Shown in pieces: positions 4,079 to 40,276 of a stretch of 64,000 bases of DNA. This DNA is from Myxococcales bacterium (GTDB taxonomy: Bacteria > Lernaellota > Lernaellaia > Lernaellales > Lernaellaceae). The position numbers were made by a program, and so were the translations under genes. The DNA lies in NCBI GenBank assembly GCA_012517325.1, contig JAAYVF010000085.1, positions 75,673 to 139,672 of the forward strand, given 5' to 3'. Below the pieces are notes generated by a model, which made no database searches, was not told the origin of the DNA, and was given only the letters and a program-made list of their open reading frames with translations. Position 1 is the first letter of the stretch. Each line of letters opens with the position of its first letter.

Positions 4079-4243
4079 CTCCACCGTCGCCGAAACGCGA
4101 CATTCTATTGACGATAACAACGATCCGGCGCCTTTTCTAAGATTTTTTCCGTTTTGTCTAGATTAACCGTCTTCGATAGTTGCTTGGCGACCGCCGCCTT
4201 GTTAGCATGAATAAGTACCTTCTCCGGCGGTAACGAAAAGCGG

Positions 4244-6975: not shown

Positions 6976-6976
6976 A

Positions 6977-9145: not shown

Positions 9146-9146
9146 G

Positions 9147-13774: not shown

Positions 13775-13792
13775 AGCGAAAGGGGTAACGCG

Positions 13793-14038: not shown

Positions 14039-14136
14039 TTTCGATTGAGCGATCATTTCCGGAAGGACGGGAATGAAGCCGCGAAGCCACGGAGCGCAAG
14101 GAGGAAGAGCACGGTTTTAATTGTCGTCCATCGGTT

Positions 14137-14808: not shown

Positions 14809-14841
14809 ACGGCGGACGCGGTGGCATGAGGGAGTAAACAC

Positions 14842-15426: not shown

Positions 15427-15448
15427 TCGCGAGTAGACGGGAGTAGGA

Positions 15449-15961: not shown

Positions 15962-16000
15962 TCGTGTTGCCGCGATCAGGTTGCGCGGGGAGAAAGGAAA

Positions 16001-17299: not shown

Positions 17300-17311
17300 G
17301 GAGGTGGGGTC

Positions 17312-17866: not shown

Positions 17867-17931
17867 TAACTGAGAAAACTCAATAATAATGATTATATTT
17901 GAGTTGGCATGCTAATTATCTGAGGAATTAA

Positions 17932-19158: not shown

Positions 19159-19165
19159 GCTGCCG

Positions 19166-20044
19166 ATGAGAGCGTTACGACTGGCGTTGATCCTAAGCCT
19201 GCTGAGCGCCGCCGTCTGGGCGGCCGAAACCGATTCGTATGTGATCGGCGACGGCGATATCCTCCACATTCTCGTCTACGACGAACCCGATCTCGAACGC
19301 ACGGTCACCGTTCAGCCCGACGGCCTGATCCGGTTTCCGCTGGTTCGTCAACTGCAGGTCGGCGGCCTGAGCGTCCAGGAAGCCGAGCAGCGCCTGGAAG
19401 AGGCACTGGGGCAAAAATACCTCAATGATCCGCAAGTGACGATCACGGTGAAGGAATTCCATTCCAAAAAAGTCTACGTGCTCGGCGCGGTGAAAAATCC
19501 GGGCCTTTATTCGCTGACCGGACCCAGTACGGTGCTGGAAGTGATCTCCAAGGCCGGCGGCACGACCGACAACGGCGACCGCCAGATCCTCTTGGTGCGC
19601 GGCGACAAGCAGAAGCAGGCCGAGGTGAAAAAATTCCTCGAGGAAAAAGGCGCCACCGACGCCGAAGCCATGCGGGAAGCCGGTTTGCAGCCGCCGATCG
19701 TCATCGACGGGCACAAGCTGTTCGACCTGGGCGATACCTCGCAGAATCAGGTGTTGCAGGACGGCGACGTCATTTACGTGCCGCAACTGACCAAGGTCTA
19801 CGTCCTGGGCGAGGTCAAACGCACCGGCAGCATTCCCTACACCGAGGGTCTGACGCTGGTGCAGGCCGTCACTCTGGCGGGCGGGGTCACGGAGATGGCC
19901 AGCAACACCATTTACGTGACGCGCAAGGTCAACGGCAAGGAAGTGCGCATCAAGGCGAAATTCTCCGCCATCCTCGGCGATACCAGCAAGGATATCCTGT
20001 TGCAACCGGCCGACGTGATCGTCGTGAAACGGCGCATTCTGTAG
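19166..20044 (+). CDS. Wza-like polysaccharide export protein (Poly_export + SLBB domains)
   Basis: Signal peptide. IGDGDILHILVYDEPDLERTVTVQPDGLIRFPLVRQLQVGGLSVQEAEQRL matches the Poly_export domain. Two SLBB-like repeats (VYVLGAVKNPG...; VYVLGEVKRTG...). Confidence 0.85.
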   Translation: MRALRLALILSLLSAAVWAAETDSYVIGDGDILHILVYDEPDLERTVTVQPDGLIRFPLVRQLQVGGLSVQEAEQRLEEALGQKYLNDPQVTITVKEFHSKKVYVLGAVKNPGLYSLTGPSTVLEVISKAGGTTDNGDRQILLVRGDKQKQAEVKKFLEEKGATDAEAMREAGLQPPIVIDGHKLFDLGDTSQNQVLQDGDVIYVPQLTKVYVLGEVKRTGSIPYTEGLTLVQAVTLAGGVTEMASNTIYVTRKVNGKEVRIKAKFSAILGDTSKDILLQPADVIVVKRRIL

Positions 20045-20056
20045 GAGAAACGGCGC

Positions 20057-22261: not shown

Positions 22262-23184
22262 TTCTGGTTACGGGAGGCGCGGGTTTCATCGGCTCGCATC
22301 TGGTGCGCGGTTTGCTCGCGCGCGGCGAGCGCGTCCGTATTTTAGACAATCTTTCTTCCGGCAAGCGGGCCAACATCGCGGGCCTGGACGTCGAGTTCGA
22401 GCCGGCCGATCTGCGCGACGAGGCGGCGGTCGCGGCGGCGGTCCGCGGGGTGGATGCCGTGTATCACCTGGCGGCGGTCGTCAGCGTGCCGCAGACGGTG
22501 GCCGATCCGGCGACCAGCCACGACGTCAACGTGACGGGCACCTATCGCCTGCTCGAAAACGCCCGGCTGGCCGGGGTGCGGCGGTTCATTTTCTCGTCCA
22601 GCGCCGCCGTTTACGGCGACGAGCCGTCGCTGCCGAAGCGCGAAACTTCGCCGCTGGCGCCGCGCAGCCCGTACGCGCTGCACAAATTGATCGGCGAACA
22701 GTATTTGAAACTCTATGCCGACCTCTACGGCATGGACACCATGAGCTTCCGTTACTTCAACGTGTTCGGCCCGCGCCAGGATCCGCTGGGTGCCTATGCG
22801 GCGGCGATTCCGAAGTTCGTCGAAGCCATGGCCGCCGGCGTTTCGCCGACGATCTTCGGCGACGGCCGCCAGACGCGCGATTTCGTCTTCGTGGAAGACG
22901 TGGTCGCCGCCAACCTTGCCGCGCTCAAGGCCGAACGGCCGGCCGGCCGGGTGATCAACGTCGCCGGCGGCAGGCGCATCGATTTGTTGGAGTTGCTTGG
23001 CGCGCTGGAAACGGTGTTTCAACGCGAAGCCAAGCCGGTTTTCGCCGCGCCCCGGCCCGGCGACGTGCGCCACAGCGTGGCGGCGACCGACGAGGCGGCG
23101 GCCTACCTGGGTTTTCACCCCCGGACCTCGCTTACCGAAGGCCTGGCGCAAACCGTGCGGTGGATGCTCCAGAGCGGAGGATGA
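22258..23184 (+). CDS. NAD-dependent sugar epimerase/dehydratase (SDR family, UDP-hexose 4-epimerase-like)
   Basis: VTGGAGFIGSHL Rossmann motif, catalytic YxxxK (YALHKLIGEQY). ATGA overlap with wzc. Confidence 0.85.
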   Translation: MILVTGGAGFIGSHLVRGLLARGERVRILDNLSSGKRANIAGLDVEFEPADLRDEAAVAAAVRGVDAVYHLAAVVSVPQTVADPATSHDVNVTGTYRLLENARLAGVRRFIFSSSAAVYGDEPSLPKRETSPLAPRSPYALHKLIGEQYLKLYADLYGMDTMSFRYFNVFGPRQDPLGAYAAAIPKFVEAMAAGVSPTIFGDGRQTRDFVFVEDVVAANLAALKAERPAGRVINVAGGRRIDLLELLGALETVFQREAKPVFAAPRPGDVRHSVAATDEAAAYLGFHPRTSLTEGLAQTVRWMLQSGG

Positions 23185-23191
23185 GCGTTTT

Positions 23192-24562: not shown

Positions 24563-25923
24563 GCCGGTCGCCGAACCGATCGCTTTTGTTAACGACGATT
24601 TGGAGCCTGCTCCTGGCGGTGCTGTTCGGGAAAGCTGGCGCCGTCTTTCTCTCGAGCGTGCCCGCGCACGAATTGACCATGGAACGGCGGATGTTGCGCG
24701 AAGCCGGCAAAACGCCGTCCCCCGAGCATTTGATCCACGAATGGTCCAGCCTCTCGCGCGCGCTGTACTGGTCGCCGGGCGATGCCGATTTGTGGTTCCA
24801 ACTGGGCCGCAATCTGCACCGCGTCGCCTTGGCGGATGTCCCGGTTCCCAAGAGTTACCTCGGCGAGATCGGCGCTTTCCTTTCGTTGCCCGCGCCGCAA
24901 CAGCCGGGCGATCAGCGCGAACTGCTGCTGACCGGCGCGATCGCGGCCTACGACCGGGCCGTCGCGGCCAACCAATTGGTGTCGGGCGCGCGCTTCTGGC
25001 GATTGGCGGCGCGGGACGCGATCGCCGCCGACAAACCCGAACCATGGGAAAACGACCTCAAACCGGCGGTGCAAAAGGCGCTGGAGTTCGATCCGAACGA
25101 TCCGGCGGCCTGGCGCGCGGCCGGTGAAATGGCGCTCCGGCACGACGATCCGGATGCCGCGGTGCTCTGGCTCAAAGGGTCGCTGACCGTGAAATTGGAC
25201 GGCCTGGAGCGGGTCGCCGAAACCCTGCTGACCCTACCCGAGGGCAGTCGGCGTTTCGGCGAGGTCATCCCGGAAAAGGCGGAAGCCTGGAAGCGGCTGG
25301 CGCGCTATCTGTTCACGCAATGGCGGGTGCCTTCGGCGGTCGAGGCGTTCGACCATGCCATGCGTCTGGCCGGCACGACCGCGATCCGGCCGCCGGAAGG
25401 GGAAGCGGTTTCCGACGGCGATTTCGCGGACGATTCCGAACGCCTGCTGCATCCCTGGCGCATCGAGGCCGCACGCGGCGTGAAAACGATCCGCCGGGTG
25501 GAACAGCGCCAGCTCGAGGTGGTCTTTCAACGGGGACCGGCCAATTGGTACCATGTCTGGCAAGAAGTGGCGGTCGAGCCGGGACGGAACTATCGGTTGT
25601 CGGCCTCTTTGCAGGTCGACGGTTTTTCCCCCGATGAAACGTTCGGGGTGGAAGCGGTGCATCCCTACGAGATTTCACTGTTCGCCGCCAACGCGCGGTG
25701 TTACGCCGCCGCCGGCCCCTCGTACCGCCAGCCGTTGCCGGTGAGCGACGGCCGTTTTGTCACCGTCGAAACGACGTTCCGGGCGCCGGACGGTGTACGG
25801 GTGCTGATCGTCCGGCCGCGACGATTCGGCGGCGACGAAAAAGCGAGCGGCACGCTCCGCATCCGCGCCGTGTCCCTACGGCAGACGGCCGAGCCGGAGG
25901 ATTCCGCCGTTGACCCGAGTTAG
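24559..25923 (+). CDS. Membrane-anchored hypothetical protein with TPR-like helical region and C-terminal beta-sandwich (carbohydrate-binding-like) domain
   Basis: N-terminal signal anchor (LLLTTIWSLLLAVLFG). Helical repeats with W/A-rich TPR-like motifs. Beta-rich C-terminus. ATGA overlap with the preceding Wzy_C gene. The 5' part of ORF 23848..25923 overlaps the ligase and was trimmed. Confidence 0.45.
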   Translation: MSRSPNRSLLLTTIWSLLLAVLFGKAGAVFLSSVPAHELTMERRMLREAGKTPSPEHLIHEWSSLSRALYWSPGDADLWFQLGRNLHRVALADVPVPKSYLGEIGAFLSLPAPQQPGDQRELLLTGAIAAYDRAVAANQLVSGARFWRLAARDAIAADKPEPWENDLKPAVQKALEFDPNDPAAWRAAGEMALRHDDPDAAVLWLKGSLTVKLDGLERVAETLLTLPEGSRRFGEVIPEKAEAWKRLARYLFTQWRVPSAVEAFDHAMRLAGTTAIRPPEGEAVSDGDFADDSERLLHPWRIEAARGVKTIRRVEQRQLEVVFQRGPANWYHVWQEVAVEPGRNYRLSASLQVDGFSPDETFGVEAVHPYEISLFAANARCYAAAGPSYRQPLPVSDGRFVTVETTFRAPDGVRVLIVRPRRFGGDEKASGTLRIRAVSLRQTAEPEDSAVDPS

Positions 25924-27568
25924 CGTCGTCATCCGCACCTACAACGAAGCGGCGCACATCGAGGCGACGTTGCGCGCCGTCCTGGAGCAGCGCGAGGTCG
26001 AGCCCGAGGTCATCGTCGTCGATTCGGAAAGCACCGACCGGACGCGGGAGCTGGTCGCGGCGTTTCCCGTTCGGTTGATCGTCATCCCGAAAAAAACCTT
26101 TTCTTACGGCCGCGCCCTGAACGCGGGCTTCGCGGCGGCGACCGCTCCCTTCGTCACCAGCCTTTCGGCCCACGCCTTGCCGTTCGACCGGCACTGGCTG
26201 CGCAATCTGGTGCGGCCCCTGGCCGATCCCCTGGTCGACGGCGTGGTCGGCAAGACGCTGCCGCACCCGGATTGCAACCCGTTCGACCGTCGCGGACTGT
26301 TGCGGCAATACGGCGTCGTTTCGGGTTACCTGTGCGACGGGCGGATTCCCGGCTTTTCCAACGCCAACAGCGCCGTTCGGCGCGCCGCCTGGGAAGTCGA
26401 GCCGTTCGACGAGACGCTGCCGTATTCCGAGGACGTGCGCTGGGCCCGGCGGCGGCAGGGGCTGGGCCGTTACCTGGTCTACGCAGCGGACGCGGTGGTC
26501 TACCACAGCCACAACGAGACGCCCGCCGAATTGCGCCGGCGTTTTTGGGGTGAAAGCCGCGCCCGCGAAATCCTCGATCCGCACAATCCGCGCTACCGCG
26601 GCACGGCGCTCGCCTGGGACCTGACCGCCGGAACGCTCTACGATTGGTGGACGCTGGCCCGCGAGCGGCTGCCGTGGCATTGGTGGCCCTTCGCCTGGCG
26701 GCGCCGGGCGGCCATCAACGCCGGGCGCTACGCCGGTTCGCGCGGCATCCAATTGTCGGCCGAGGGGCGTCTGTGGCCCAATCTGCTGCGGCGCGCCTGG
26801 TTGCGCCCCCTGCGTTTTCTGGGCTCGCTGGCCGGCCGCCTCGCGCCCTATCTGGTGGTCTGGACCCGCAAACATCCGCGACCGTTGCATCCGAAGCACC
26901 TGCTGGGCGAGCGCGAGGATCATTACTGGTACGCGCCGGAATTGGCGGGCGGCGCCCGCGCGCTCGATGTCGGTTGCAACGTCGGCGCGCACTCGCACTT
27001 CGCCGCGCGGCAGGGTCTGGCGGTCGTCGGCATGGACGTCGATCCGCGGGCGCTGGGCCACGCGCGGTTTCTGCTGGGCTGGGAAAAAATGCGGCGGGCC
27101 CTGGTCGTCCAGGCCGACGCCGACCGGACTTTTCCGCTGGCGGACGCCGTGTTCGACCGCGTACTGGCCTTCGACGTGATCGAGCACATTGCCGACCCCG
27201 TGCATTTGCTGGCCGAAATCCGGCGCGTGCTGACGCCTGACGGCCTGCTCCTGCTGACCGCGCCGAACGCGGAAACGACCTGGAAAAAACGCTACCGCGC
27301 CGCCGGCCTGCCGTTTTTCGCCGACGTTTCGCACCGGGTGGAATACACGCGCGCCGGCATCGAGAAAACCCTGAACGAGGCGGGCTTCGCGGTGCTGCGC
27401 GACGAACCGATCGTCGCCGATACGCCGGCCGCGCCGTGGTACGATCTGCTCGGCGCGATCAGCCTGAAACTTTATGCCCGGCTGGCGGCGAAAAAGCGCC
27501 GGGCGGCCCTGGCCCGGCCCGCGGACAGCACCGGTTTCCGGCTGGTGGCGCGAAAGGTCGGGAAGTGA
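25910..27568 (+). CDS. Bifunctional family-2 glycosyltransferase / class-I SAM-dependent methyltransferase fusion
   Basis: N-terminus VSVVIRTYNEA...VIVVDSESTD (GT2 DXD region). C-terminus has LDVGCNVGAHS SAM-binding motif I and downstream motifs (VLAFDVIEHIADP, LTPDGLLLLTAPN). TTG start. Confidence 0.75.
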   Translation: MTRVSVVIRTYNEAAHIEATLRAVLEQREVEPEVIVVDSESTDRTRELVAAFPVRLIVIPKKTFSYGRALNAGFAAATAPFVTSLSAHALPFDRHWLRNLVRPLADPLVDGVVGKTLPHPDCNPFDRRGLLRQYGVVSGYLCDGRIPGFSNANSAVRRAAWEVEPFDETLPYSEDVRWARRRQGLGRYLVYAADAVVYHSHNETPAELRRRFWGESRAREILDPHNPRYRGTALAWDLTAGTLYDWWTLARERLPWHWWPFAWRRRAAINAGRYAGSRGIQLSAEGRLWPNLLRRAWLRPLRFLGSLAGRLAPYLVVWTRKHPRPLHPKHLLGEREDHYWYAPELAGGARALDVGCNVGAHSHFAARQGLAVVGMDVDPRALGHARFLLGWEKMRRALVVQADADRTFPLADAVFDRVLAFDVIEHIADPVHLLAEIRRVLTPDGLLLLTAPNAETTWKKRYRAAGLPFFADVSHRVEYTRAGIEKTLNEAGFAVLRDEPIVADTPAAPWYDLLGAISLKLYARLAAKKRRAALARPADSTGFRLVARKVGK

Positions 27569-30500
27569 TGCACGTCGCGCTGCTGACCGATTATTTCGTT
27601 CCCCACGCGCCGGGCGGTGCGGAGTGGAGCGCCCTGGCGTTGGCCGAAGGCCTGGCCGCGCGCGGGGATCGGGTTTCGGTGGTGACGCTCGATCTGGCCG
27701 ACGCCGCCGCGCGACCGGCGGTCGAGCGCCTGGACGGCGAGCTGGCCGGGCGCGGCATCCGGGTCGAGCGGTTGCCCTTCGGCCGGAAAATGAGCGGCGA
27801 ACCACAGACGTTTCCCAGCTACGTTTTCGGCAATCCCTGGACCGAACGGCGATTGTCCGGGCGCGTCGCGGCCGCCGTGGCCGCGTTACGACCCGACGTG
27901 CTGCACGTACAGGGCCTGGGCCTTTTGATTCCCGGCCACTTCGCCGCCCGCGCCCACAACCGACCGCTCCTATTCACCGTGCGCGATTACCGGCCGCTCT
28001 GCCCGGTCGCCATTTGCCTCCATCGGCAGGACGCGCCGCCGCGCGGTTGCGACCGTCGCCGCTTTCGCGCCTGCACCCGCGAGTACCTCGAGATTTACGG
28101 CCTGGCGCTGTCGGCCGCCGCGCGCCTCCGTTATCGGCTGCGTCGCGAGTTGGAATGGTCGGCGCGGCTGCGGCAGGCGCGCGTGTTTCCGGAACTCGAC
28201 GCCGCGGTCTTTGTTTCCGCCGCCGCGCGGCAACATTACCTGGCCGCCGGAATGACCGCCCGCCACCTGGCGGTGATTCACAATCCGCCGGTGCCGGAAA
28301 GCGATTTTGCCGATCCCGATGAGTTGCGCCGCCGCTTCGGCCTGAACGGCCCGGTCGCGCTGTTCGTCGGCCGGTGGTCGCTCGGCAAGGGCGCGGCGGA
28401 AATGAGCCGCGCCTGGGATCTGGTGACGAGCCGGCTGCCCGCCGCGCAGCTCGTGATCGTCGGCCGCCGCGAGTCCGGCGAAACGCCGCTGGACGGCCGG
28501 GTCGTGTTCACCGGACCGCTGCCGCATCGCGAGGTGTTGGGGCTCATGCAGGCCGCCGCCGTGCACGTGCTGCCCTCGCGTTGGCCGGAGCCGTTCAGCC
28601 GCACAGCGCTCGAGGCCATGGCGGCGGCGCGGCCGATCGTCGCCACGGCGGTGGGCGGCAATCCGGAACTGGTGCGCGACGGCGAAACGGGCTGGCTCGT
28701 GCCGCGCGGCGATCCGGCGGCGTTCGCTTCCCGGCTGGCGGATTTGCTGGGCGATCCGGAACGGGCCGAGGCGATGGGCGCGGCGGGACGGGCGCGCCTC
28801 GGCGCGGAGTTATCGGCCGAAAAATCGCTGGCCGAATGGCAGGCGCTTTACGCGGCGGTCGCCGAACGGCGCGGGAAGCTGCTGCGCGTTTGCGCGCCGG
28901 CCACCAGCCTGTCGGAAAAAACCGTGCAGGGCGGCGGCTACTTCCACGTCAAGAATCTGCAGGCGCTGGCGGCGCGGGGCGTCGCGCTGCGCATCCCGCT
29001 GGCTTTCCGTCCCGAATACGAGCCGCGCGAAAATTGGGATGTGCGGCCGATTCCGGTGCGCCGCGCCTACAAGCTCGGCGCGCTCTTGTCCAACCTCGTT
29101 TTCGGCGGCGCGGTCGTCGGGCAAGCGGCGTTTCGCCGGCGATTCGATTTGCTGCGGATCGGCGACCTCTACCACATGGGGCCGGGGCTGCTTCTGGCGG
29201 CGCGGCTGTGCGGCCTGCCGACCTGCGGCGTCCTGCATCACATCGATCACGAGCGCCGCCTCGAAAACGCGGTGGTCGGTTGGACGGCCCGCCGGCTCGA
29301 TTGTCTGACCGTGCCCAGCCGCGCGACCGCCGCGGACGTGGCACGCACCTTCGGCGTCGATCCGCTGCGGATTCGCGTCATCGCCGAAGGAGCGACGATT
29401 TTCGCGGGCGCCGCGGCCGACCGGGCCGAGGCACGGCGGCGGCTGAATCTGCCGGACGGGCCGCTGCTCGGCTTTGTCGGCGGTCTGGAAGCGCGCAAGA
29501 ACGTCGATTTTCTGCTGCGGGCGTTCGCCCTTCTGGCGGCGCAAATTCCCGCTGCGCGGCTGCTGGTGGTCGGCGACGGTTCGCAACGCGCCGCGCTGGA
29601 GGATCAGGCCCGTGCGCTGGGCGTCGGCGATCGCGTAGTCTTCGCGGGGCGGTTGTTCGAGGAAGGTAAGGCCAACGCTTATCGCGCCATGGACCTGTTC
29701 GTCTTTCCGAGCCGCAACGAGGGATTCGGGCTGGCGGTCGCCGAGGCGATGGCGATGGGCGTGCCGCCGGTGGTCAGCGACCGCGGCAGTTTGCCCGAGG
29801 TGGTCGTCGATCGCGTCACCGGGCGCGTGTTGTCGCTCGACGATCCGGCGGCCTGGGTGGCGGCCTGCGGCGAACTGCTGCGCGACGAAAGCGAGCGGGC
29901 CCGGCTTGGCGCGGCGGCGCGGGAGCACGCGGCGACGAACTTCACCTGGGAAGCGAGCGCGGCGGATGCCGAAGCGGCGTTTCGCGCGGTGCTGGCCGAA
30001 AAAAAGGAAATCAACCTCGGCGTGCTGCTCAACTCCGGCGATTCGCTGGCCGTGATGAAGCGCGAGGGGCAGGAGGATCGCTTCGTGCGCTCCTACCTCG
30101 GGCGGTACGCCGCCTCGTTCGACCGGGTTTACGTGTTCTCGTACGGCGACGACCGCTTGCGGCCGTATCCGAACGCCGTCTTCGTGCCCGGACGGCCTCG
30201 CTGGAAAGGCCCGCTCTATGCGGCGCTCGCGCCGTTTCTGCACGCCGCGACCTTCCGCCGGCTGGCGCTCTTGCGCGTGATGCAGACCGGCGCGGCCTTG
30301 CCCGCCGTGCTGGCGCGCCTGCTGTACGGCGTACCGTTCGTCGCGACGTACGGCTATCGCTACGGCGACTTCATGCGGGTCAAGGGCCGCCGGCTTTACG
30401 GCTGGTACCTCGACCGGCTGGAGCGCCTCACGTTCCGCCTCGCCGCGCGGGTGATCGTGACCACGCCCGCCTTGCAGGCGCACGTGGCGCGCTTCGCCAC

Positions 30501-32196
30501 TCCCGAAAAAATCGCGCTCTTGCCCAATGGCGTCGAACTAGATCGCTTTTGTCCCGGCGAGCGGCAGGAATCCGCGGCGAAAAAAACCTTGCTTTTCGTC
30601 GGCCGCCTGACCGCGCAAAAAAAATTGCCCCTGTTGATTGAAGCGCTGGCGCCCTTACGCGATCGCGTCCGGTTGATCTGCGTCGGCGCCGGCGAGGAGG
30701 AAACCGCTTGGCGGCGCCTGGCCGCCGAACATGGCGTGGAGGTCGATTGGCGCGGCGTGGTGCCCAACGAACAGTTGCCGGAAATTTATCGCCGGGCCGA
30801 TCTGTTCGTTCTGCCCAGCCGCGTCGAAGGGCATCCGAAAGCGCTGCTCGAGGCGATGGCCAGCGGCCTGCCGTGCCTCGGAGCCGCCGCGCCGGGCATT
30901 CGCGACGTCCTCACGCATGACGTGGACGGCTGGCTGGCCGAACCGGACCGGGACGCCTGGCGCAAGGCGGTGGAACGGTTGCTGGACGACCCGGCGACGG
31001 CGCGCCGCCTGGGAGACGAGGCGCGGCGGACGGCGTTGTCGCGGTACGATTTGAAGGCGGTGCTGGACCGGGAAATCGAGTTGCTGTGCTCGGTGGTTCG
31101 CGGGCGGACCGGCCGGCCGCGCGTGCGCTTCCTGTTCAACAAGCCGCGCGCGGCGATGCTGGCGGCGGCGCGCGAGGGGCGGTGCCCCGACGAGTTGCTT
31201 TACGGCCTGCGATCGCTGCAGAAACGGGGTTGGGACGCGAGCGCCGGCGACGAGGGTTTCGCCGCTTTCTTCGGCGGCGGTCTGCTCAAGGCGCTGGACA
31301 ACCGGCTCAGTTGCGACGGCCGGCGGACCGGTTTCCATTTGCGGCAGGCCTGGCGGCTGCGCGACGAACTGCGCCGCGCGGATGTCGTGTTCGCGACCGC
31401 CGACAGCTCCGCGCTGCCGGTCTTGTGGCTCAAGCGGCTCGGCCTGCTGACGACGCCCGTCGTCTGCGCCAGCATCGGGCTGGCCGAAACGTTCGCCGCC
31501 GATCGCGGCCCGGTATATCGTTGGTACAAGCGGCTGTTGCCGCTGGCTTCGGCGATTCTGGTCTATTCGCCCGCCGAGGCCGCGGAACTGGGCGCGGCGT
31601 TCGCCTTGCCGCGCGAGAAGGTGCGCTTCGTGCCGTTCGGCGTCGAGTGCGAATTCTTCGCCGGAACCGCCGCACCGGTGGGCCGCCCGTTGGCCTTCGG
31701 CCTGGATCAGCGACGCGATTGGCCGACGTTGTTCGCCGCTCTGCGGCAGGCTGAAATCGAAATGGATGTCCTGACCAACCCGGATTTGCTGCGCGGCCTG
31801 ACGCCGCCGCCCCAGGCGCGGCTGGCGGCGCCCGAGCCGATCGACCGCCTGCGCGACCGCCTGCGCCGCGCGCCGTTTGTGGTGTTGCCGGTGAAAGAGA
31901 ACCTATACAGCGGCGGGACGATCAGCCTGTTGCAGGCGATGGCCGCCGGCCGTGCGGTGATCGTTTCGCGGACCCGCGCCATCGCCGACGGTTACGGCCT
32001 CGCCGATGGCGAAAACTGCCTGCTCGTGCCGCCCGGCGATGTCGCCGCCCTGGCCGCGGCGATCGCCCGCCTGGCGCATGATCCGTCCTTGGCTGCGCGT
32101 TTGGGCGCGGCGGCGCGGGATCACGTCTGCCGGCATTATTCCGTCGAGCGGCTCGCGGCGGCCGTCGATGCGGCCCTGCGGGAGGCGATGCCATGA
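27568..32196 (+). CDS. Giant multi-module glycosyltransferase (four tandem GT4/GT-B modules in one 1,542-aa polypeptide)
   Basis: Four repeats of the GT4 architecture. Each ends in the E(x)7E-type sugar-donor binding region: SRWPEPFSRTALEAMAAARPIVAT; SRNEGFGLAVAEAMAMGVPPVVS; SRVEGHPKALLEAMASGLPCLGA; ENLYSGGTISLLQAMAAGRAVIVS. ATGA overlap with the upstream gene. Confidence 0.8.
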   Translation: MHVALLTDYFVPHAPGGAEWSALALAEGLAARGDRVSVVTLDLADAAARPAVERLDGELAGRGIRVERLPFGRKMSGEPQTFPSYVFGNPWTERRLSGRVAAAVAALRPDVLHVQGLGLLIPGHFAARAHNRPLLFTVRDYRPLCPVAICLHRQDAPPRGCDRRRFRACTREYLEIYGLALSAAARLRYRLRRELEWSARLRQARVFPELDAAVFVSAAARQHYLAAGMTARHLAVIHNPPVPESDFADPDELRRRFGLNGPVALFVGRWSLGKGAAEMSRAWDLVTSRLPAAQLVIVGRRESGETPLDGRVVFTGPLPHREVLGLMQAAAVHVLPSRWPEPFSRTALEAMAAARPIVATAVGGNPELVRDGETGWLVPRGDPAAFASRLADLLGDPERAEAMGAAGRARLGAELSAEKSLAEWQALYAAVAERRGKLLRVCAPATSLSEKTVQGGGYFHVKNLQALAARGVALRIPLAFRPEYEPRENWDVRPIPVRRAYKLGALLSNLVFGGAVVGQAAFRRRFDLLRIGDLYHMGPGLLLAARLCGLPTCGVLHHIDHERRLENAVVGWTARRLDCLTVPSRATAADVARTFGVDPLRIRVIAEGATIFAGAAADRAEARRRLNLPDGPLLGFVGGLEARKNVDFLLRAFALLAAQIPAARLLVVGDGSQRAALEDQARALGVGDRVVFAGRLFEEGKANAYRAMDLFVFPSRNEGFGLAVAEAMAMGVPPVVSDRGSLPEVVVDRVTGRVLSLDDPAAWVAACGELLRDESERARLGAAAREHAATNFTWEASAADAEAAFRAVLAEKKEINLGVLLNSGDSLAVMKREGQEDRFVRSYLGRYAASFDRVYVFSYGDDRLRPYPNAVFVPGRPRWKGPLYAALAPFLHAATFRRLALLRVMQTGAALPAVLARLLYGVPFVATYGYRYGDFMRVKGRRLYGWYLDRLERLTFRLAARVIVTTPALQAHVARFATPEKIALLPNGVELDRFCPGERQESAAKKTLLFVGRLTAQKKLPLLIEALAPLRDRVRLICVGAGEEETAWRRLAAEHGVEVDWRGVVPNEQLPEIYRRADLFVLPSRVEGHPKALLEAMASGLPCLGAAAPGIRDVLTHDVDGWLAEPDRDAWRKAVERLLDDPATARRLGDEARRTALSRYDLKAVLDREIELLCSVVRGRTGRPRVRFLFNKPRAAMLAAAREGRCPDELLYGLRSLQKRGWDASAGDEGFAAFFGGGLLKALDNRLSCDGRRTGFHLRQAWRLRDELRRADVVFATADSSALPVLWLKRLGLLTTPVVCASIGLAETFAADRGPVYRWYKRLLPLASAILVYSPAEAAELGAAFALPREKVRFVPFGVECEFFAGTAAPVGRPLAFGLDQRRDWPTLFAALRQAEIEMDVLTNPDLLRGLTPPPQARLAAPEPIDRLRDRLRRAPFVVLPVKENLYSGGTISLLQAMAAGRAVIVSRTRAIADGYGLADGENCLLVPPGDVAALAAAIARLAHDPSLAARLGAAARDHVCRHYSVERLAAAVDAALREAMP

Positions 32197-34529
32197 TCCG
32201 CCGGCTCGCCGATCGCTTCGACGTGGACCTGTCCTACTACCTGTCGGGCGGTTCGCTGCTGCTCATCGACCAGGGAGTCGGCATGGTCACCGGCCTGGCG
32301 ACCGCCTGGTGCTTCTCGACCTACGCGCCGAAGACGACCTACGGCGCCTACGGCTACATCGGCGCGATCGTCGGCATGCTGTCGCTGATCGCCTTGCCGG
32401 GCGTCAGCCAGGCGATTCAGCGTTCGGCGGCGCGCGGCTTCGACGGCGCCTTCGCGATCGGCATGCGCCAGCGCCTGAAAGCGGGCGGCGTCGCCAGCGT
32501 GATCCTGCTGCTGCTCGGGGCGATCTTTTTCCTCAGCGGCCAGCAGGCGAACGCGGTGGGCGCGCTGGTGGCGTCGGTCCTTTTCCCCTTCGCCTACGCG
32601 ATGGATGATTACCGCAGCGTGCTGTTCGGCAAGCAGCGCTTCGGGTTGTACCTGGCGCTGCACACGATGTTGCAGGTCGCGGTGGCCGCCGGGACGATCG
32701 CGGCGATCCTGCTGTCGTTTTCCTTCCCGGCGATCCTGTTCGCCAACATGGCCTCGCGGGCCGTGGTCAACGGCGCCTGGTGGCTGGCGGTGCAGAAGAC
32801 GGTGATCGCCAACCGCAAGGTGGACGCCGATTTTCGGCGTTACGGTTGGAACCTCAGCCTCGTGGGCATCGTCGGCGGCATCAGCTATCACCTGGATCGC
32901 GTGATCGTCGGCGCGACCCTCGGCCTGGAAACGATGGCCGCCTACGAGTTGTCGTTCCGCCTGACCGAGCCGTTGCGCTCGCTGGGCGTTTTTCTCAACA
33001 AGCTGGTGTTTCCGCGCGCGGTGAAAGTCTCCGGCGCGGCGGTGGCGCGACGGTTCTTATCGCGCACGTTCATCATGAGCGCCGGCCTGGCGGGCCTGGG
33101 CGTGATCGGCGTCTGGCTTTGCGGGCCGGCGATCCGCCTGGTGTTTCCCAATTACCCCGAGGCGATCGGCATGACGCGCTGGATGATCTGGTCGGCGCTG
33201 ATCTCGATTGTGCTGATCTACCTCGAAACCTATTACCTGGCGCAGGAACGTTTCGTCCGCACCTATTACGCGGTCAGCGCCTTGCGGCCGATCGGGATCA
33301 TCGTCCTGCTGCCGTTTTTCATCGCCCGCTGGGGCGCCTACGGCGCGATCGGCGCCAAGCTGCTGGTCCGCGTGTTCGAGGCGGTTTTCCTGGTCGCCAA
33401 GCTGACCGCCGACTGGCTGCTGTTGTGGCGCGAGGAAGCCATCGAAAAGCCGGGTTCGTTGCCGCTCGGCCCGCAGGAATGGGGGCGCTGTCCGTTGTGC
33501 GGCGACCCCGCAACCCGGCCGCGCTGGACCGTCCGCGACCGCCTGCACGGCCTGCCGGGCCGCTTCTCGCTGGTGCAGTGCCGCGGCTGCGGCTTGCTGC
33601 GCCTGCAACCGCGCCTGACGGCGAACGCCGTCGGGCTTTATTACCCGCCGGATTACGGTGCGCACCGGCAGGAAAGGCCGGCGGCGCTGGGGCGGGGGCG
33701 CACGCATCGCTGGCGGCGGCTCTGGGTGGAATGGCTGCTGGCCGGCCGGCCGGGGCCGGGAGAAATCGGCTGGCGGCGCGCCGCGCTCACCTGGCCGGCC
33801 CGGCTGTTCGGGTTGACCGCGGCGGCGCGGTTCAATCCATTCGCGTATCCCGGCGAGGGCCGGCGCCTGCTCGACATCGGTTGCGCCAGCGGCGATTTTC
33901 TGGTGGAAATGCGGGCGCTCGGCTGGGACGCGAGCGGCGTCGAATTCGCCGAGAGCGCGGCGGCGACGGCGCGCGAACGGGGCCTGACGGTCACCGTTGG
34001 TTCGTTCCCCGAGGTGGCCGGGGCGCTGCCGGGCGCTTACGATCTGATCGCCATGCGGCAGGTCGTCGAGCATTTGTCCGATCCGGCGGCGGCGTTGCGG
34101 CAGGTCCGCGAACTGCTGGCGCCGAGCGGCGCGCTGTTGCTGGCGACGCCGCTGGCCGACGGCTGGCTGGCGCGCGCGGCCGGAAGATACTGGTATCCGC
34201 TCGACCCGCCGCGGCATACGATGGTGTTTGATCGCCGGCAACTGGCGGCGCTATTGCGGATCGCCGGTTTCCGGGTGGCGGCGCTGCTGGATCATTCCAG
34301 CACCACGTCCTGGACCCGCAGCCTCGACTATTGGCTGGCGGATCTGCCGTGGAACGCCCGCCCGCCGCGGGTCGACCGGTCGCGGCTGCTTCATCGGCTG
34401 CTGGCCGGACCGACGCGGCTGAGCGACTGGTTCGGGCGGGGTGACGGCGGTATCGTGCTGGCGGTGCGCGACGACGCGCCGGCGGCCGGCTGGGCGCCGC
34501 GCGAGATTCAGGAAGGAAGAGTGCGATGA
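32193..34529 (+). CDS. Wzx-like MOP-superfamily flippase fused to a zinc-ribbon + class-I SAM methyltransferase domain
   Basis: About 410-aa N-terminus with about 12 TMs (polysaccharide biosynthesis/RfbX-like). Then CPLCG...CRGCG zinc ribbon. Then LLDIGCASGDF SAM motif I and VVEHLSDP/LLLATP methyltransferase motifs. ATGA overlap upstream. Confidence 0.75.
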   Translation: MIRRLADRFDVDLSYYLSGGSLLLIDQGVGMVTGLATAWCFSTYAPKTTYGAYGYIGAIVGMLSLIALPGVSQAIQRSAARGFDGAFAIGMRQRLKAGGVASVILLLLGAIFFLSGQQANAVGALVASVLFPFAYAMDDYRSVLFGKQRFGLYLALHTMLQVAVAAGTIAAILLSFSFPAILFANMASRAVVNGAWWLAVQKTVIANRKVDADFRRYGWNLSLVGIVGGISYHLDRVIVGATLGLETMAAYELSFRLTEPLRSLGVFLNKLVFPRAVKVSGAAVARRFLSRTFIMSAGLAGLGVIGVWLCGPAIRLVFPNYPEAIGMTRWMIWSALISIVLIYLETYYLAQERFVRTYYAVSALRPIGIIVLLPFFIARWGAYGAIGAKLLVRVFEAVFLVAKLTADWLLLWREEAIEKPGSLPLGPQEWGRCPLCGDPATRPRWTVRDRLHGLPGRFSLVQCRGCGLLRLQPRLTANAVGLYYPPDYGAHRQERPAALGRGRTHRWRRLWVEWLLAGRPGPGEIGWRRAALTWPARLFGLTAAARFNPFAYPGEGRRLLDIGCASGDFLVEMRALGWDASGVEFAESAAATARERGLTVTVGSFPEVAGALPGAYDLIAMRQVVEHLSDPAAALRQVRELLAPSGALLLATPLADGWLARAAGRYWYPLDPPRHTMVFDRRQLAALLRIAGFRVAALLDHSSTTSWTRSLDYWLADLPWNARPPRVDRSRLLHRLLAGPTRLSDWFGRGDGGIVLAVRDDAPAAGWAPREIQEGRVR

Positions 34530-36046
34530 GTCCGGGCGGTTGGCGGGATCTGGGCGGGGCGGGGCTGGAGCGCGGGTTGCGTTCGGCCGGCCGCTCGCTG
34601 GCCCTGATGCCGCGCCAGATCTTCGACGTCATCATCCTGCTGCTGGGCGCGATGGTGATGATCTACCTGTTCATCTACCGGGCGCCGTATTACGCCGTCG
34701 GTTTCGTCGTCGTGCTGTTCGCCGTGTTGTTTCTCATGCGCCAGCCGGTCAACCTCAGCTACGCGCTGTTCGCCCTGATCCCCGTCTACTGGATGAACCT
34801 GCTCGGCCAAAGCCTGCGCGTGGTGACGGTGCTGACGTTGATCGGTTTTACCTATCATCTCGGTCGTGCCGTCCTGCGGCGCCAGCGCGGTCTGTACAAT
34901 ACGGTTTACCTGGGCTTCCTGCTCTACCTGATCACCTGCCTGTTCAGCCTGTTCAATTCCGCCAGCATCGCGGAGGAAAGCTGGCCGGGCATCAAATATT
35001 TTCTGTTGGCGCTGATGCTGATGTTCGTCCTGACGGCGAGCCTCAAGACCGAGCGCGACCTGCGCATCCTGTTCTGGATCCTCTTGCTGTGGGGGCTCGT
35101 CGAATCCGTGTTGGGGCTGTTGCAGACGCTGGTTTCGCCGCGCTTCTATCTCGCGCAGACCTACCTGTCGATCATCGACGCCTACAGCGTCGGCGGGGTT
35201 CGCCGCGCGTCGGGCACCTTCCAGATCGGGCCGCGTTACGCGATGTACCTGATGGGACCGCTGGCGCTGGTGGTCGCCGGCCTGTTTTCGGGCCGGATCC
35301 TGAGCCGCCGCACCTGGTTGCTGTTTCTGGTGCCGCTGGTCGGCGGCGTGTTCGTCAGCCTGACGCGCATCGCGGTCGGCTTGAGCTTCGCCTATCTGGT
35401 GCTGTTCAATTTCTTCGAGCGCCGCCGCAAGGCGTTGATCGCCAGCCTCGCCGGCCTGCTCCTGGCCGCGGTGGTGGTGGCCACCGTGCTGGTCGTGCTG
35501 CCCGCCGACGTGAAGGGCGCGTTCATGCAGCGGTTCACCGAGAAAGACGACGAAATCTACACCGACCGGTTGTACTTCCTGTGGAACGCGCTGGGCGCCT
35601 TCAGCGAGCATCCGTTTCTCGGCATCGGCGTGGGCACCTACGAGGGCCGATCGTGGGAATTCATGCAGAAGTACCCGTTGCCGTGGCGGCAGTACCGCTG
35701 GGATGTCGCGGCGCAATGGAGCATGCCCGAGACGGTGCCGGTGCACAACGAGTACGGGCGCATGCTCGCCGAGCAAGGCCTGTTTTCGCTGCCGGTCTTT
35801 CTCTTTTTGCTCTGGGCGGCGTTTCGGAATCTGTGGTTCGTCATCCACGAGACGCAACGGCCGCTGGTTCGGCTGTGGGGCGTCGCCGTGGCGATGTACC
35901 TGAGTGCCATGGTGGTCTATTGGTATTTCCACGAGTATTTCATGGAGGAGCCCTATACCTCCATCATGCCTTTCGCGTTGAGCGTCATTCTGTACAATTT
36001 CGTCCGAAGGGAAGTGGCGGAACGTGCGAGCGGCGAAACGTCCTAA
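34526..36046 (+). CDS. O-antigen ligase / Wzy_C-family polymerase-like membrane protein (paralog 2)
   Basis: Polytopic. LTRIAVGLSFAYL and periplasmic loop FSEHPFLGIGVGTYEG characteristic of Wzy_C. ATGA overlap upstream. Confidence 0.75.
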   Translation: MSPGGWRDLGGAGLERGLRSAGRSLALMPRQIFDVIILLLGAMVMIYLFIYRAPYYAVGFVVVLFAVLFLMRQPVNLSYALFALIPVYWMNLLGQSLRVVTVLTLIGFTYHLGRAVLRRQRGLYNTVYLGFLLYLITCLFSLFNSASIAEESWPGIKYFLLALMLMFVLTASLKTERDLRILFWILLLWGLVESVLGLLQTLVSPRFYLAQTYLSIIDAYSVGGVRRASGTFQIGPRYAMYLMGPLALVVAGLFSGRILSRRTWLLFLVPLVGGVFVSLTRIAVGLSFAYLVLFNFFERRRKALIASLAGLLLAAVVVATVLVVLPADVKGAFMQRFTEKDDEIYTDRLYFLWNALGAFSEHPFLGIGVGTYEGRSWEFMQKYPLPWRQYRWDVAAQWSMPETVPVHNEYGRMLAEQGLFSLPVFLFLLWAAFRNLWFVIHETQRPLVRLWGVAVAMYLSAMVVYWYFHEYFMEEPYTSIMPFALSVILYNFVRREVAERASGETS

Positions 36047-40122: not shown

Positions 40123-40276
40123 CGGCGGCTCCGTCAACAGTCTGTTGAAAAAGGCCGTCCTGGCCTTTTTCAACCGCGCTCAACAAAAAGCGTGGTTTTT
40201 CTTTCGCTTCATTTTCGGCAACTTCGGAAGTTGCCGAAAATGGCGATCCATCCCTGGATCGCACGCCGGGTGTTTT

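What the first reader, a model, noticed from the sequence alone, without database searches (positions are those of the whole stretch)
32193..34529. Wzx-type flippase fused to a Zn-ribbon SAM-dependent methyltransferase
The N-terminal 410 aa form a 12-TM MOP/Wzx flippase. The C-terminal 360 aa contain a CxxC...CxxC zinc ribbon and a complete class-I methyltransferase fold (LLDIGCASGDF motif I). Coupling lipid-linked repeat-unit flipping with methylation in one protein suggests methylation is performed on the undecaprenyl-linked intermediate at the membrane. I do not recognise this architecture as a described one.
Basis: partly seen in the sequence, partly recalled or inferred. Interest (0 to 1): 0.6.

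Follow-up and report, generated by a model that had tools for sequence, protein, structure and literature searches.

The report
Polysaccharide flippase fused to methyltransferase
A membrane protein that flips sugar building blocks across the cell membrane is joined in one chain to a methyl-adding enzyme; this rare, undescribed arrangement occurs in a few uncultured bacteria and suggests that decorating and exporting the building block are physically coupled.

Summary
ORF 32193-34529 (+) encodes one uninterrupted 778-aa protein. Residues 1-418 are a 12-helix Wzx-type MOP flippase (Pfam Polysacc_synt; TM-score 0.72 to solved WzxE). A ~10-residue tether follows, then a four-cysteine zinc ribbon, a linker with a near-invariant YYPxDY motif, and a class I SAM methyltransferase with intact cofactor motifs. 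Topology puts the methyltransferase in the cytoplasm. The fusion is real and under selection: 16 full-length homologues (45-81% identity) lie in the same gene cassette. It is also rare: 2 of 1.84 billion protein representatives and 4 of 185,579 reference species, all uncultured (Lernaellota/FEN-1099-like). In related cassettes the two halves are separate, abutting genes, and in one a non-homologous methyltransferase fills the same slot. Most likely the methyltransferase modifies the lipid-linked repeat unit at the flippase entrance; the substrate is inferred, not shown. Unexpectedly, a subgroup of six homologues has lost the SAM-binding motifs yet keeps the domain, the zinc ribbon and a fusion-specific C-terminal tail, so the C-half also has a non-catalytic role. 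No paper describing this architecture was found. It is a new variant of known kinds, of moderate interest.

The parts
32193..34529 (+). Whole fusion gene (778 aa plus stop). Its start overlaps the upstream stop by 4 nt (ATGA) and its stop overlaps the downstream start by 4 nt (ATGA). A GGAGG sits 8 nt before the ATG.
32193..33446 (+). Flippase half, aa 1-418: 12 TM helices, Wzx-type MOP fold, N-in/C-in topology.
   Evidence: Pfam PF01943/PF13440; AF2 helices; Foldseek to WzxE 9g9p, TM-score 0.72 normalised to target, 414 columns; K/R 19 inside vs 3 outside
33447..33476 (+). Tether, aa 419-428. It is the least conserved segment (21-28% identity) but nearly constant in length, and has low pLDDT.
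33477..33617 (+). Four-cysteine zinc ribbon, aa 429-475 (C433, C436, C463, C466), forming a three-stranded beta-ribbon in the model.
   Evidence: Cysteines invariant in 16/16 fusion proteins and C463/C466 conserved in all 119 aligned stand-alone relatives; AF2 strands 441-448, 457-463, 469-471
33618..33842 (+). Linker, aa 476-550. It carries the YYPPDY motif (aa 483-488) and basic, Trp-rich helices.
   Evidence: Y484 and Y488 are 98% and 96% conserved in 119 stand-alone relatives
33843..34292 (+). Class I SAM methyltransferase core, aa 551-700. Motif I is LLDIGCASGD (559-568), the post-I acidic residue is in GVE (aa 581-583), motif II is YDLIAMRQVVEHLSDP, motif III is LLAPSGALLLATP.
   Evidence: Pfam PF13489 99.6 bits; PDB sequence hits 2p7h, 3cc8, UbiG, MtmC; motif table
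34293..34469 (+). Post-core helices and the last beta-strand, aa 701-759, including the GDGG turn. This region also aligns in the stand-alone relatives.
34470..34526 (+). Fusion-specific C-terminal tail, aa 760-778 (RDDAPAAGWAPREIQEGRVR). It is conserved in both subgroups and absent from stand-alone methyltransferases.
   Evidence: D761, R770 and E771 are invariant; the aa 750-778 region is 58-70% identical within and between subgroups; P0024 and the L004 MTase end before it
27436..32196 (+). Upstream gene: four GT4 glycosyltransferase modules in one ORF. The true start is probably MHVALL near 27568. It is translationally coupled to the fusion gene.
25910..27568 (+). GT2 glycosyltransferase fused to a second methyltransferase that has no zinc ribbon.
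34526..36046 (+). Downstream Wzy_C-family membrane protein (polymerase or ligase-like), translationally coupled to the fusion gene.
19061..23184 (+). Export and precursor genes of the same locus: Wza-type OPX (19061-20044), PCP-2a with BY-kinase (20057-22261), GalE/TviC-like SDR epimerase (22258-23184).

Best explanation
The gene encodes the Wzx flippase of a Wza/Wzc/Wzx/Wzy-type exopolysaccharide pathway. A complete, catalytically competent SAM-dependent glycan methyltransferase module has been fused to its cytoplasmic C-terminus. [quoted passage not shown] In solved WzxE the C-terminal tail lies next to the cytoplasmic entrance of the lumen, and its authors propose that the substrate pyrophosphate is first recruited there. 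The proposed mechanism is as follows. The repeat unit is assembled on undecaprenyl-PP by the GT2-MTase and the five GT4 modules. The tethered module then methylates it, most likely O-methylation of a late or terminal sugar. The unit is then handed directly into the flippase, flipped, and polymerised by the Wzy-like protein encoded next. Shown here: the architecture, the topology, intact SAM motifs, conservation, synteny and the split-gene forms. Inferred: the substrate, the order of events and any gating. The subgroup with a dead methyltransferase shows that the C-half also has a non-catalytic role, such as docking, substrate reading or partner binding.
For: Architecture and fold. Cytoplasmic placement: 12 helices plus 19 vs 3 K/R; WzxE termini are cytoplasmic and its C-terminal tail sits at the lumen entrance (PMC11706664). 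Not an artefact: 16 full-length homologues at 45-81% identity align continuously through the junction. Sole MOP protein found in a complete Wzx/Wzy locus: Wza, PCP/BY-kinase, two Wzy_C genes, 1 GT2 and 5 GT4 modules. The cassette is syntenic in Ca. Lernaella (L001) and in L002/L003. Split forms: in L018, the same cassette, a 414-aa flippase (38% identity) abuts a 588-aa MTase whose first 332 aa match the C-half at 37% identity, E 1e-50, including the zinc ribbon. In L004 a 427-aa flippase (36%) overlaps by 17 nt a 333-aa Zn-ribbon MTase (32%, E 3e-48). In L017 a non-homologous Methyltransf_24 enzyme sits between flippase and Wzy. Overall 3 of 5 informative stand-alone flippase relatives are followed directly by a methyltransferase. 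Only the flippase-adjacent MTase carries the Zn-ribbon/YYxxDY module; the other cluster MTases do not. Stand-alone relatives of the module lie in glycan-assembly loci beside GTs, not beside NDP-deoxysugar genes.
Against: There is no direct evidence for the substrate. The best fold matches of the C-half are MtmC, KijD1 and TcaB9, which methylate soluble dTDP-sugars. The closest stand-alone MTase (P0167, 53% identity) is not next to a flippase, and two stand-alone flippase relatives have no adjacent MTase, so the link is lineage-specific. Subgroup B keeps the fusion without SAM motifs, so catalysis is dispensable for whatever keeps the halves together. The AF2 pTM is only 0.57 and the tether has low pLDDT, so the relative orientation of the domains is not established. 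No priming phosphoglycosyl transferase was found in the window.
Confidence: 0.55

Rival explanations
1. The methyltransferase module acts on a soluble nucleotide-sugar precursor, like the Zn-ribbon C3-methyltransferases TcaB9, MtmC and KijD1. On this view the fusion to the flippase only co-localises or co-regulates the two activities.
For: The top Foldseek hits of the C-half are MtmC 4rv9, KijD1 5t6b and TcaB9 3ndi, with about 360 aligned columns spanning the ribbon and the SAM domain. These also appear in the sequence and profile searches.
Against: Identity is only 15-16% and TM-score 0.45. Sequence alignment covers only the Rossmann core. Pfam Methyltransf_13 (Zn domain) and Methyltransf_14 (C-terminal sugar-binding domain) are not hit in the window protein or in any of 30 relatives. 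After the core only about 80 residues remain. The only SDR enzyme found in the cluster scores best as a GalE/TviC-type epimerase, not a 4,6-dehydratase, and no Rml-type genes were seen in any sampled context.
Confidence: 0.15
2. The C-half is mainly a non-catalytic accessory domain of the flippase: a substrate reader, a docking platform for the glycosyltransferases or BY-kinase, or a regulator. Methyl transfer in the window protein would be vestigial or secondary.
For: Six of 16 family members (P0011-P0017, also L009 and L010) lack motif I, the beta2 acidic residue and strand beta3. They still keep full-length ORFs, the four cysteines and the tail (58-59% identity), while the flippase half is as conserved as in subgroup A (62% vs 63%). 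The subgroup-B model still folds (pLDDT 80-90) and still weakly matches MTases. The conserved tail is specific to the fusion proteins. There is a precedent: mycobacterial MurJ carries a fused intracellular pseudokinase domain (PMC6180346).
Against: In the window protein and nine other subgroup-A members, every SAM motif is intact and the Rossmann core is 63% conserved, as high as the flippase half. That argues catalysis is under selection in this protein.
Confidence: 0.15
3. The methyltransferase targets something other than the glycan, for example a lipid or polyprenyl head group, or a protein of the export machinery.
For: The Rossmann core resembles UbiG (a polyprenyl-quinol methylase) and phospholipid N-methyltransferases about as well as it resembles sugar methyltransferases.
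Against: Those similarities are generic to the Methyltransf_11/23 core. All sampled relatives of the whole module sit in glycan loci beside glycosyltransferases. In L004, methyltransferases alternate one-to-one with GT4 genes.
Confidence: 0.1
4. The fusion is an assembly or annotation artefact, such as a lost stop codon or a chimeric contig.
For: The source is a metagenome-assembled genome. In relatives the two halves exist as adjacent genes whose ends abut or overlap.
Against: The same uninterrupted architecture occurs in 17 protein clusters from independent samples and assemblers (NCBI, JGI, ENA, Logan), down to 45% identity. A conserved-length tether and a conserved fusion-specific tail are present. 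It also occurs in 4 separate reference-species MAGs.
Confidence: 0.02

Closest known systems
Wzx flippases of Wzx/Wzy-dependent pathways (solved example: E. coli WzxE, PDB 9g9p/9g97; PMC11706664)
   Same: 12 TM helices; a Polysacc_synt Pfam match; TM-score 0.72 to WzxE; both termini cytoplasmic; encoded with Wzy, PCP and OPX genes.
   Different: Described Wzx proteins are stand-alone, about 400-500 aa. This one carries a 356-aa enzyme module on its C-terminus. Where WzxE has a C-terminal arginine cluster, this family has a conserved R-E-E followed by the tether.
Stand-alone Zn-ribbon/YYPxDY Methyltransf_23 proteins of glycan loci (uncharacterised; e.g. P0024, P0167, L004 8762-9763)
   Same: The whole C-half (ribbon, YYPxDY linker, Rossmann core, GDGG strand) aligns end to end at 30-53% identity. 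At least 119 were retrieved here.
   Different: They are soluble or separate proteins, and none has been studied experimentally as far as I could find. They lack the conserved RDDAPxAGWAPRE tail. The same module also occurs fused to GT2 (P0128), duplicated (P0028), or followed by a second MTase (P0040, L018).
NDP-hexose C3-methyltransferases TcaB9, MtmC and KijD1
   Same: An N-terminal four-Cys zinc ribbon followed by a class I SAM domain. They are the best structural neighbours of the C-half.
   Different: Only 15-16% identity. There is no Methyltransf_13/14 signature and no large C-terminal sugar-nucleotide domain. These enzymes are soluble and belong to antibiotic deoxysugar pathways.
Mycobacterial MurJ (MviN) with fused intracellular pseudokinase domain (Gee et al. 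2012, as cited in PMC6180346)
   Same: A MOP-superfamily lipid-linked-glycan flippase with an extra cytoplasmic (pseudo)enzyme domain on its C-terminal side. It is the closest architectural precedent, especially for subgroup B.
   Different: It is a 14-TM MurJ, not a Wzx. Its appended domain is a kinase fold with a regulatory role through FhaA, not a methyltransferase.
TacF 'gatekeeper' MOP flippase of S. pneumoniae (PMC13385700), and WbdD/Wzt in ABC-dependent O-antigen export (PMC3482155)
   Same: In both systems export depends on a cytoplasmic decoration of the lipid-linked glycan: phosphocholine for TacF, and a terminal methyl or phosphomethyl group for WbdD/Wzt.
   Different: In those systems the decorating enzyme and the transporter are separate proteins. 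Here writer and transporter form one chain, and no gating has been shown.

Membership tests
MOP superfamily, Wzx/PST-type flippase | Sequence match to the Polysacc_synt family above the curated threshold | tested here: met
   PF01943: 50.9 bits vs cutoff 28.2. PF13440: 26.4 bits vs cutoff 23. No MurJ or MatE hit.
MOP superfamily, Wzx/PST-type flippase | 12 transmembrane helices with both termini cytoplasmic | tested here: met
   12 long helices in the AF2 model. K/R count is 19 in the even loops vs 3 in the odd loops. This is prediction only, not experimental mapping.
MOP superfamily, Wzx/PST-type flippase | Fold superposes on an experimentally solved Wzx | tested here: met
   WzxE 9g9p_A: TM-score 0.72 normalised to target, 414 columns, E 1.4e-7. 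This is better than MATE (0.61).
MOP superfamily, Wzx/PST-type flippase | Encoded with Wzy, a polysaccharide co-polymerase and an OPX exporter | tested here: met
   Wza 19061-20044, PCP/BY-kinase 20057-22261, Wzy_C at 22997-24562 and 34526-36046. It is the only MOP protein found in the locus.
MOP superfamily, Wzx/PST-type flippase | Translocates polyprenyl-PP-linked repeat units | not testable with these tools
   Needs complementation or in vitro flipping assays.
Class I SAM-dependent methyltransferase (Methyltransf_23) | Sequence match above the curated threshold and a Rossmann fold | tested here: met
   PF13489: 99.6 bits vs cutoff 27. The model has alternating beta/alpha elements across 558-700 plus strand 752-759. 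PDB MTase matches were found.
Class I SAM-dependent methyltransferase (Methyltransf_23) | SAM-binding motifs: motif I (D/E)xGxGxG-like, an acidic residue at the end of beta2, and motifs II and III | tested here: met
   LLDIGCASGD, GVE, YDLIAMRQVVEHLSDP and LLAPSGALLLATP are present in the window protein and in P0002-P0010. They are NOT met in P0011-P0017, L009 and L010.
Class I SAM-dependent methyltransferase (Methyltransf_23) | Binds SAM and transfers a methyl group | not testable with these tools
   Needs biochemistry.
TcaB9/MtmC/KijD1 NDP-hexose C3-methyltransferases | N-terminal four-Cys zinc domain preceding the SAM domain | tested here: met
   C433/C436/C463/C466. Foldseek alignments of about 360 columns span both parts.
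TcaB9/MtmC/KijD1 NDP-hexose C3-methyltransferases | Pfam Methyltransf_13 (Zn domain) and Methyltransf_14 (C-terminal substrate domain) signatures | tested here: not met
   Neither appears, even at E up to 10 for the window C-half, and neither appears in any of 30 relatives. Profile-to-PDB alignment covers only the Rossmann core.
TcaB9/MtmC/KijD1 NDP-hexose C3-methyltransferases | Genomic association with NDP-4-keto-6-deoxyhexose synthesis genes | tested here: inconclusive
   The one SDR enzyme in the cluster scores best as GalE/TviC (197 and 184 bits) and lower as dTDP-glucose 4,6-dehydratase (160 bits); all are below the cutoffs. No nucleotidyltransferase was seen.
WbdD-type chain-terminating methyltransferase | Kinase domain and coiled coil; acts in an ABC-transporter-dependent pathway | tested here: not met
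   No kinase or coiled-coil Pfam hit. The protein is an integral MOP flippase in a Wzx/Wzy locus.

The most novel reading that the evidence does not exclude
The C-terminal module may be a licensing checkpoint for flipping. It would write (subgroup A) or merely read and bind (subgroup B pseudo-enzymes) a mark on the completed lipid-linked repeat unit, and only then release the unit into the flippase lumen. That would be a single-chain, Wzx-pathway counterpart of decoration-gated export, as in TacF/phosphocholine or WbdD/Wzt, with the fusion-specific conserved tail acting as the coupling element.
Probability: 0.2. Interest if true: 0.75.

Novelty: new variant of a known kind. Interest (0 to 1): 0.5.

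Why it matters
Two questions about the Wzx/Wzy pathway remain open. How do Wzx flippases select complete, correctly decorated repeat units? Do they physically contact the cytoplasmic assembly enzymes? The WzxE structure paper states that the translocation mechanism remains unclear. A natural covalent fusion of a tailoring enzyme to the flippase C-terminus, which in WzxE lies next to the proposed substrate entry site, is a ready-made construct for studying that hand-over by cryo-EM and biochemistry. The family also offers natural controls: catalytically dead variants (subgroup B) and split variants (L018, L004). If methylation proves to be coupled to flipping, this would be the first writer-transporter fusion described in this pathway, and a possible tool for glyco-engineering uniformly methylated polymers. 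If not, it is still a clean Rosetta-stone link. It would assign a large uncharacterised Zn-ribbon methyltransferase family to late, membrane-proximal glycan modification.

Tried and rejected
- The alignment of stand-alone flippases (A2) was too divergent for a locus scan. I used the fusion alignment instead.
- I tested whether the linker between ribbon and Rossmann core is a hydrophobic membrane anchor in stand-alone relatives. Mean hydropathy peaks at only about 1.0, at low column occupancy, so I dropped this as evidence for a lipid-linked substrate.
- I did not compute dN/dS for subgroup B. At 45-55% protein identity, synonymous sites are saturated. I relied on retained full-length ORFs and region-wise conservation instead.
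- NCBIfam gave no specific family for either half; the best hit was DVU_1556, 38 bits against a cutoff of 155.
- PDB sequence search of the flippase half found nothing. Only fold comparison worked.
- The closest stand-alone MTase (P0167) turned out not to be flippase-linked, which weakens any claim of a universal association.
- Eight literature searches found no description of a Wzx-methyltransferase fusion. The one recent paper mentioning both terms (PMC13390465) describes separate proteins.
- The artefact hypothesis was rejected on the basis of conservation.
Full report
OBSERVATION. The ORF at 32193..34529 (+) is real. It has an ATG start, 778 codons and no internal stop. Many chance ORFs overlap in this 65-70% GC region, but this one has a GC3 of 0.88 against a GC2 of 0.52. 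Its N-terminus MIRRLA... is shared by all homologues. Pfam finds Polysacc_synt (aa 23-275; 50.9 bits against a cutoff of 28.2) and Methyltransf_23 (aa 551-696; 99.6 bits against 27). The protein is identical to NLH49882.1, which NCBI names only 'methyltransferase domain-containing protein [Myxococcales bacterium]'.

ANATOMY. The AlphaFold2 model (16-sequence alignment, mean pLDDT 83.5, pTM 0.57) shows these parts in order:
- Twelve long helices: 13-44, 47-66, 85-114, 118-134, 150-173, 178-203, 214-242, 245-272, 282-317, 324-350, 352-380 and 382-418.
- A low-confidence tether, aa 419-428.
- A three-stranded beta-ribbon carrying C433, C436, C463 and C466.
- A helical linker, aa 477-547, containing YYPPDY (483-488).
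- A Rossmann domain, aa 558-700.
- Two helices and a final strand (752-759).
- A short tail.

Foldseek against the PDB superposes the N-half on the solved lipid III flippase WzxE (9g9p; TM-score 0.72 normalised to the target, 414 columns). It superposes the C-half best on the zinc-ribbon sugar C3-methyltransferases MtmC, KijD1 and TcaB9 (about 360 columns, TM-score 0.45, 15-16% identity) and on small class I methyltransferases such as 2p7h (0.68). All SAM motifs are intact in the window protein: LLDIGCASGD, GVE, YDLIAMRQVVEHLSDP and LLAPSGALLLATP.

TOPOLOGY. With the helices of the model, the loops predicted to be cytoplasmic hold 19 Lys/Arg in 98 residues. The periplasmic loops hold 3 in 60 residues. 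WzxE has 12 TM helices with both termini cytoplasmic. Its C-terminal tail lies next to the cytoplasmic entrance of the lumen, where its authors propose the pyrophosphate is first recruited (PMC11706664). The methyltransferase module is therefore cytoplasmic, where SAM is available, and is tethered by about 10 residues to that position. This is prediction plus homology, not experiment.

IS THE FUSION REAL, AND HOW COMMON IS IT? A search of 5.8 billion protein clusters found 16 further full-length fusion proteins at 45-81% identity from NCBI, JGI, ENA and Logan assemblies. They align without a break through the junction. The tether is poorly conserved (21-28% identity) but nearly constant in length. 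A profile search of 1.84 billion 50%-identity representatives returned 67,581 hits. Among the best 150, only two are full-length fusions. The rest are mostly stand-alone flippases of about 420 aa or stand-alone Zn-ribbon methyltransferases of about 340 aa, with a few fragments and other architectures. A scan of one genome for each of 185,579 species found five loci, all in uncultured MAGs, one named fen_1099 (= Lernaellota). Four of these are fusions and one is an unfused flippase. One homologue is from Candidatus Lernaella stagnicola. The fusion is thus genuine and maintained by selection, but rare and lineage-restricted.

TWO SUBGROUPS. This was unexpected. The window protein and nine other members (P0002-P0010) keep every SAM motif. 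Six members (P0011, P0012, P0013, P0015, P0016, P0017; also loci L009 and L010) differ in three ways:
- Motif I is degenerate (for example LLTLGVAPAT, LLLIGDSATN).
- The beta2 acidic residue is lost.
- About 19 residues covering strand beta3 are deleted.

Their flippase halves are as conserved as those of subgroup A (62% against 63%). Their ORFs remain full length, the four cysteines are invariant, and the C-terminal tail (RDDAPxAGWAPRE; D761, R770 and E771 invariant) stays 58-59% identical. Their Rossmann region drops to 42%. A model of P0012 still predicts a folded, one-strand-smaller domain (pLDDT about 80-90). That model still hits WzxE first (TM-score 0.65-0.68), but it hits methyltransferases only weakly (E about 1e-4, against 1e-9 for the window protein). 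The alignment behind that model is dominated by subgroup A, so this is weak evidence. The tail is absent from stand-alone relatives. These members look like pseudo-methyltransferases, so the C-half must also serve a non-catalytic purpose.

CONTEXT. The window encodes a complete Wzx/Wzy-type locus:
- A beta-barrel protein (17932-19158).
- Wza-type OPX (19061-20044).
- PCP-2a with BY-kinase (20057-22261).
- A GalE/TviC-like SDR (22258-23184).
- Wzy_C protein no. 1 and a TPR protein.
- A GT2-methyltransferase fusion (25910-27568).
- Four GT4 modules in one ORF (to 32196).
- The flippase-methyltransferase.
- Wzy_C protein no. 2 (34526-36046).
- A fifth GT4 (36024-37097).

The fusion gene overlaps both neighbours by ATGA and has a GGAGG 8 nt upstream of its start. 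It is the only MOP protein found in the locus. The same gene order is found in Ca. Lernaella (L001, subgroup A) and in L002/L003 (subgroup B). Only the way the GT4 modules are fused differs.

SPLIT FORMS. These are Rosetta-stone evidence for a functional link.
- L018 carries the same cassette. A 414-aa flippase (38% identical to the N-half) abuts a 588-aa methyltransferase. The first 332 residues of that protein match the C-half at 37% identity, E 1e-50, including the ribbon. Wzy_C and a GT4 follow.
- In L004 a 427-aa flippase (36%) overlaps by 17 nt a 333-aa Zn-ribbon/YYREDY methyltransferase (32%, E 3e-48). That cluster alternates GT4-MTase-GT4-MTase-GT4-MTase-GT4. Only the flippase-adjacent methyltransferase has the ribbon module.
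- In L017 the slot between flippase and Wzy holds a non-homologous Methyltransf_24 enzyme.
- L019 and L011 have no adjacent methyltransferase, and L016 is too short to judge.

So 3 of 5 informative relatives have a methyltransferase directly after the flippase. Conversely, the closest stand-alone methyltransferase (P0167, 53%) is not beside a flippase. Other stand-alone members sit in glycan loci beside GT2/GT4, ABC-2 transporter, PCP, acyltransferase and AsnB-like genes. None sits beside NDP-deoxysugar genes.

WHAT THE C-HALF IS RELATED TO. The module (ribbon + YYPxDY linker + Methyltransf_23 core) is a large, uncharacterised family. I collected 119 stand-alone members, in which C463 and C466 are conserved in all and Y484 and Y488 are 96-98% conserved. 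The module also occurs fused to GT2 (P0128), duplicated (P0028), or followed by a second methyltransferase (P0040). By sequence, no solved structure and no Pfam family covers anything but the Rossmann core. Methyltransf_13 and Methyltransf_14, the signatures of the TcaB9 family, are not hit. The resemblance to TcaB9, MtmC and KijD1 is therefore architectural, not a family membership.

MECHANISM. The best-supported reading (confidence about 0.55) is a bifunctional protein. The tethered cytoplasmic methyltransferase would modify the completed, or nearly completed, undecaprenyl-PP-linked repeat unit at the mouth of the flippase. The unit would then be flipped and polymerised by the Wzy-like protein encoded next. 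Shown: architecture, intact motifs, cytoplasmic placement, conservation, synteny and the split forms. Inferred: substrate identity, O- versus C-methylation, the order of events and any gating. The rivals are:
- An NDP-sugar substrate (0.15).
- A mainly non-catalytic accessory role (0.15 for this protein; likely true of subgroup B).
- A non-glycan target (0.1).
- An artefact (0.02).

COMPARISON WITH KNOWN SYSTEMS. The protein passes every computational membership test for a Wzx-type MOP flippase and for a class I SAM methyltransferase. It fails the tests for the TcaB9 family and for WbdD. Precedents exist for the separate ideas:
- A MOP flippase with an appended cytoplasmic pseudo-enzyme: mycobacterial MurJ with its pseudokinase domain (PMC6180346).
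- A MOP flippase that monitors a cytoplasmic decoration: TacF and phosphocholine (PMC13385700).
- Methylation-coupled export in the ABC pathway: WbdD (PMC3482155).

In none of these are the decorating enzyme and the flippase one polypeptide. Eight full-text searches found no description of a Wzx-methyltransferase fusion. I could not screen InterPro or AFDB architectures, so independent fusions elsewhere are not excluded.

VERDICT. This is a new variant of known kinds: a rare, conserved domain architecture with natural split and catalytically dead variants. Interest is 0.5. It is not revolutionary, because enzyme fusions are common in glycan loci. It is nonetheless a useful natural handle on the unresolved question of how Wzx flippases receive and select their substrates.

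Noticed in passing
window 27436-32196 (+): A single ORF carries four complete GT4 glycosyltransferase modules (1586 aa as listed; the true start is probably MHVALL near 27568). The same four modules are split 1184+360 aa in L001, 435+749+360 aa in L002, and fused differently again in L018 (GT2+GT4, 2xGT4, GT4). This cassette repeatedly fuses and splits its enzymes.
   Followed up: partly
window 25910-27568 (+): A second methyltransferase in the locus is fused to a GT2 glycosyltransferase (552 aa). It has no zinc ribbon. The segment before its MTase core, HPKHLLGEREDHYWY, recurs in a stand-alone MTase of L004 (1457-2242). The polymer may therefore be methylated at two positions.
   Followed up: partly
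L002 20468-22238 (runs off the locus end); also L003 20389-22159: A 1312-aa predicted protein combines MurG (Glyco_transf_28 N and C domains), MurJ and HEAT repeats. That is the last cytoplasmic enzyme of lipid II synthesis fused to the lipid II flippase, the same 'last enzyme plus flippase' logic as the finding, in a genome that carries a subgroup-B fusion. A quick literature search found no description of it.
   Followed up: no
window 37094-43748 (-): This is a block of four radical SAM proteins, three of them with a SPASM domain (37094-38776, 38560-40173, 40277-41320, 42528-43748), plus a Wzt-like ABC ATPase with a Wzt_C carbohydrate-binding domain (inside ORF 41290-43626). The block is conserved next to the cassette in L001 and L002. 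There an ABC-2 permease is adjacent; in the window the next genes are FecCD and Peripla_BP_2 instead, so no partner permease was seen.
   Followed up: partly
window 22997-24562 and 34526-36046 (+): One polysaccharide locus holds two Wzy_C-family (O-antigen polymerase or ligase-like) membrane proteins, both conserved in L001 and L002. Which is the polymerase, and what the other does, is open.
   Followed up: no
L002 12245-14442: In the subgroup-B cassette (dead methyltransferase), a radical SAM/SPASM gene and an Acyl_transf_3 acyltransferase are inserted between the fusion gene and Wzy. This may be a replacement of methylation by another decoration.
   Followed up: no
L017 2684-3544: A non-homologous methyltransferase (Methyltransf_24, 286 aa) occupies the slot between a related stand-alone flippase and Wzy. 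The 'methyltransferase after flippase' position therefore looks functionally conserved even when the enzyme family changes.
   Followed up: partly
window 4000-22000 vs 22000-48000: There is a composition step. GC is 55-60% with positive AT skew across the TPR, ExbB/ExbD/TonB, Wza and PCP genes. GC is 66-71% across the biosynthetic cassette and the radical SAM block. In L001 the cassette and its flank have similar GC (0.65 and 0.64).
   Followed up: partly
whole window; 47897-49951 (-): NCBI labels the source MAG 'Myxococcales bacterium'. However, the homologues with an informative lineage name are from Ca. Lernaella stagnicola and a fen_1099 MAG (phylum Lernaellota); the others are labelled only 'bacterium' or 'uncultured bacterium'. 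The window also encodes an aldehyde:ferredoxin oxidoreductase, an enzyme noted as abundant in Lernaellota MAGs (PMC9324843). The taxonomic label may be wrong.
   Followed up: no
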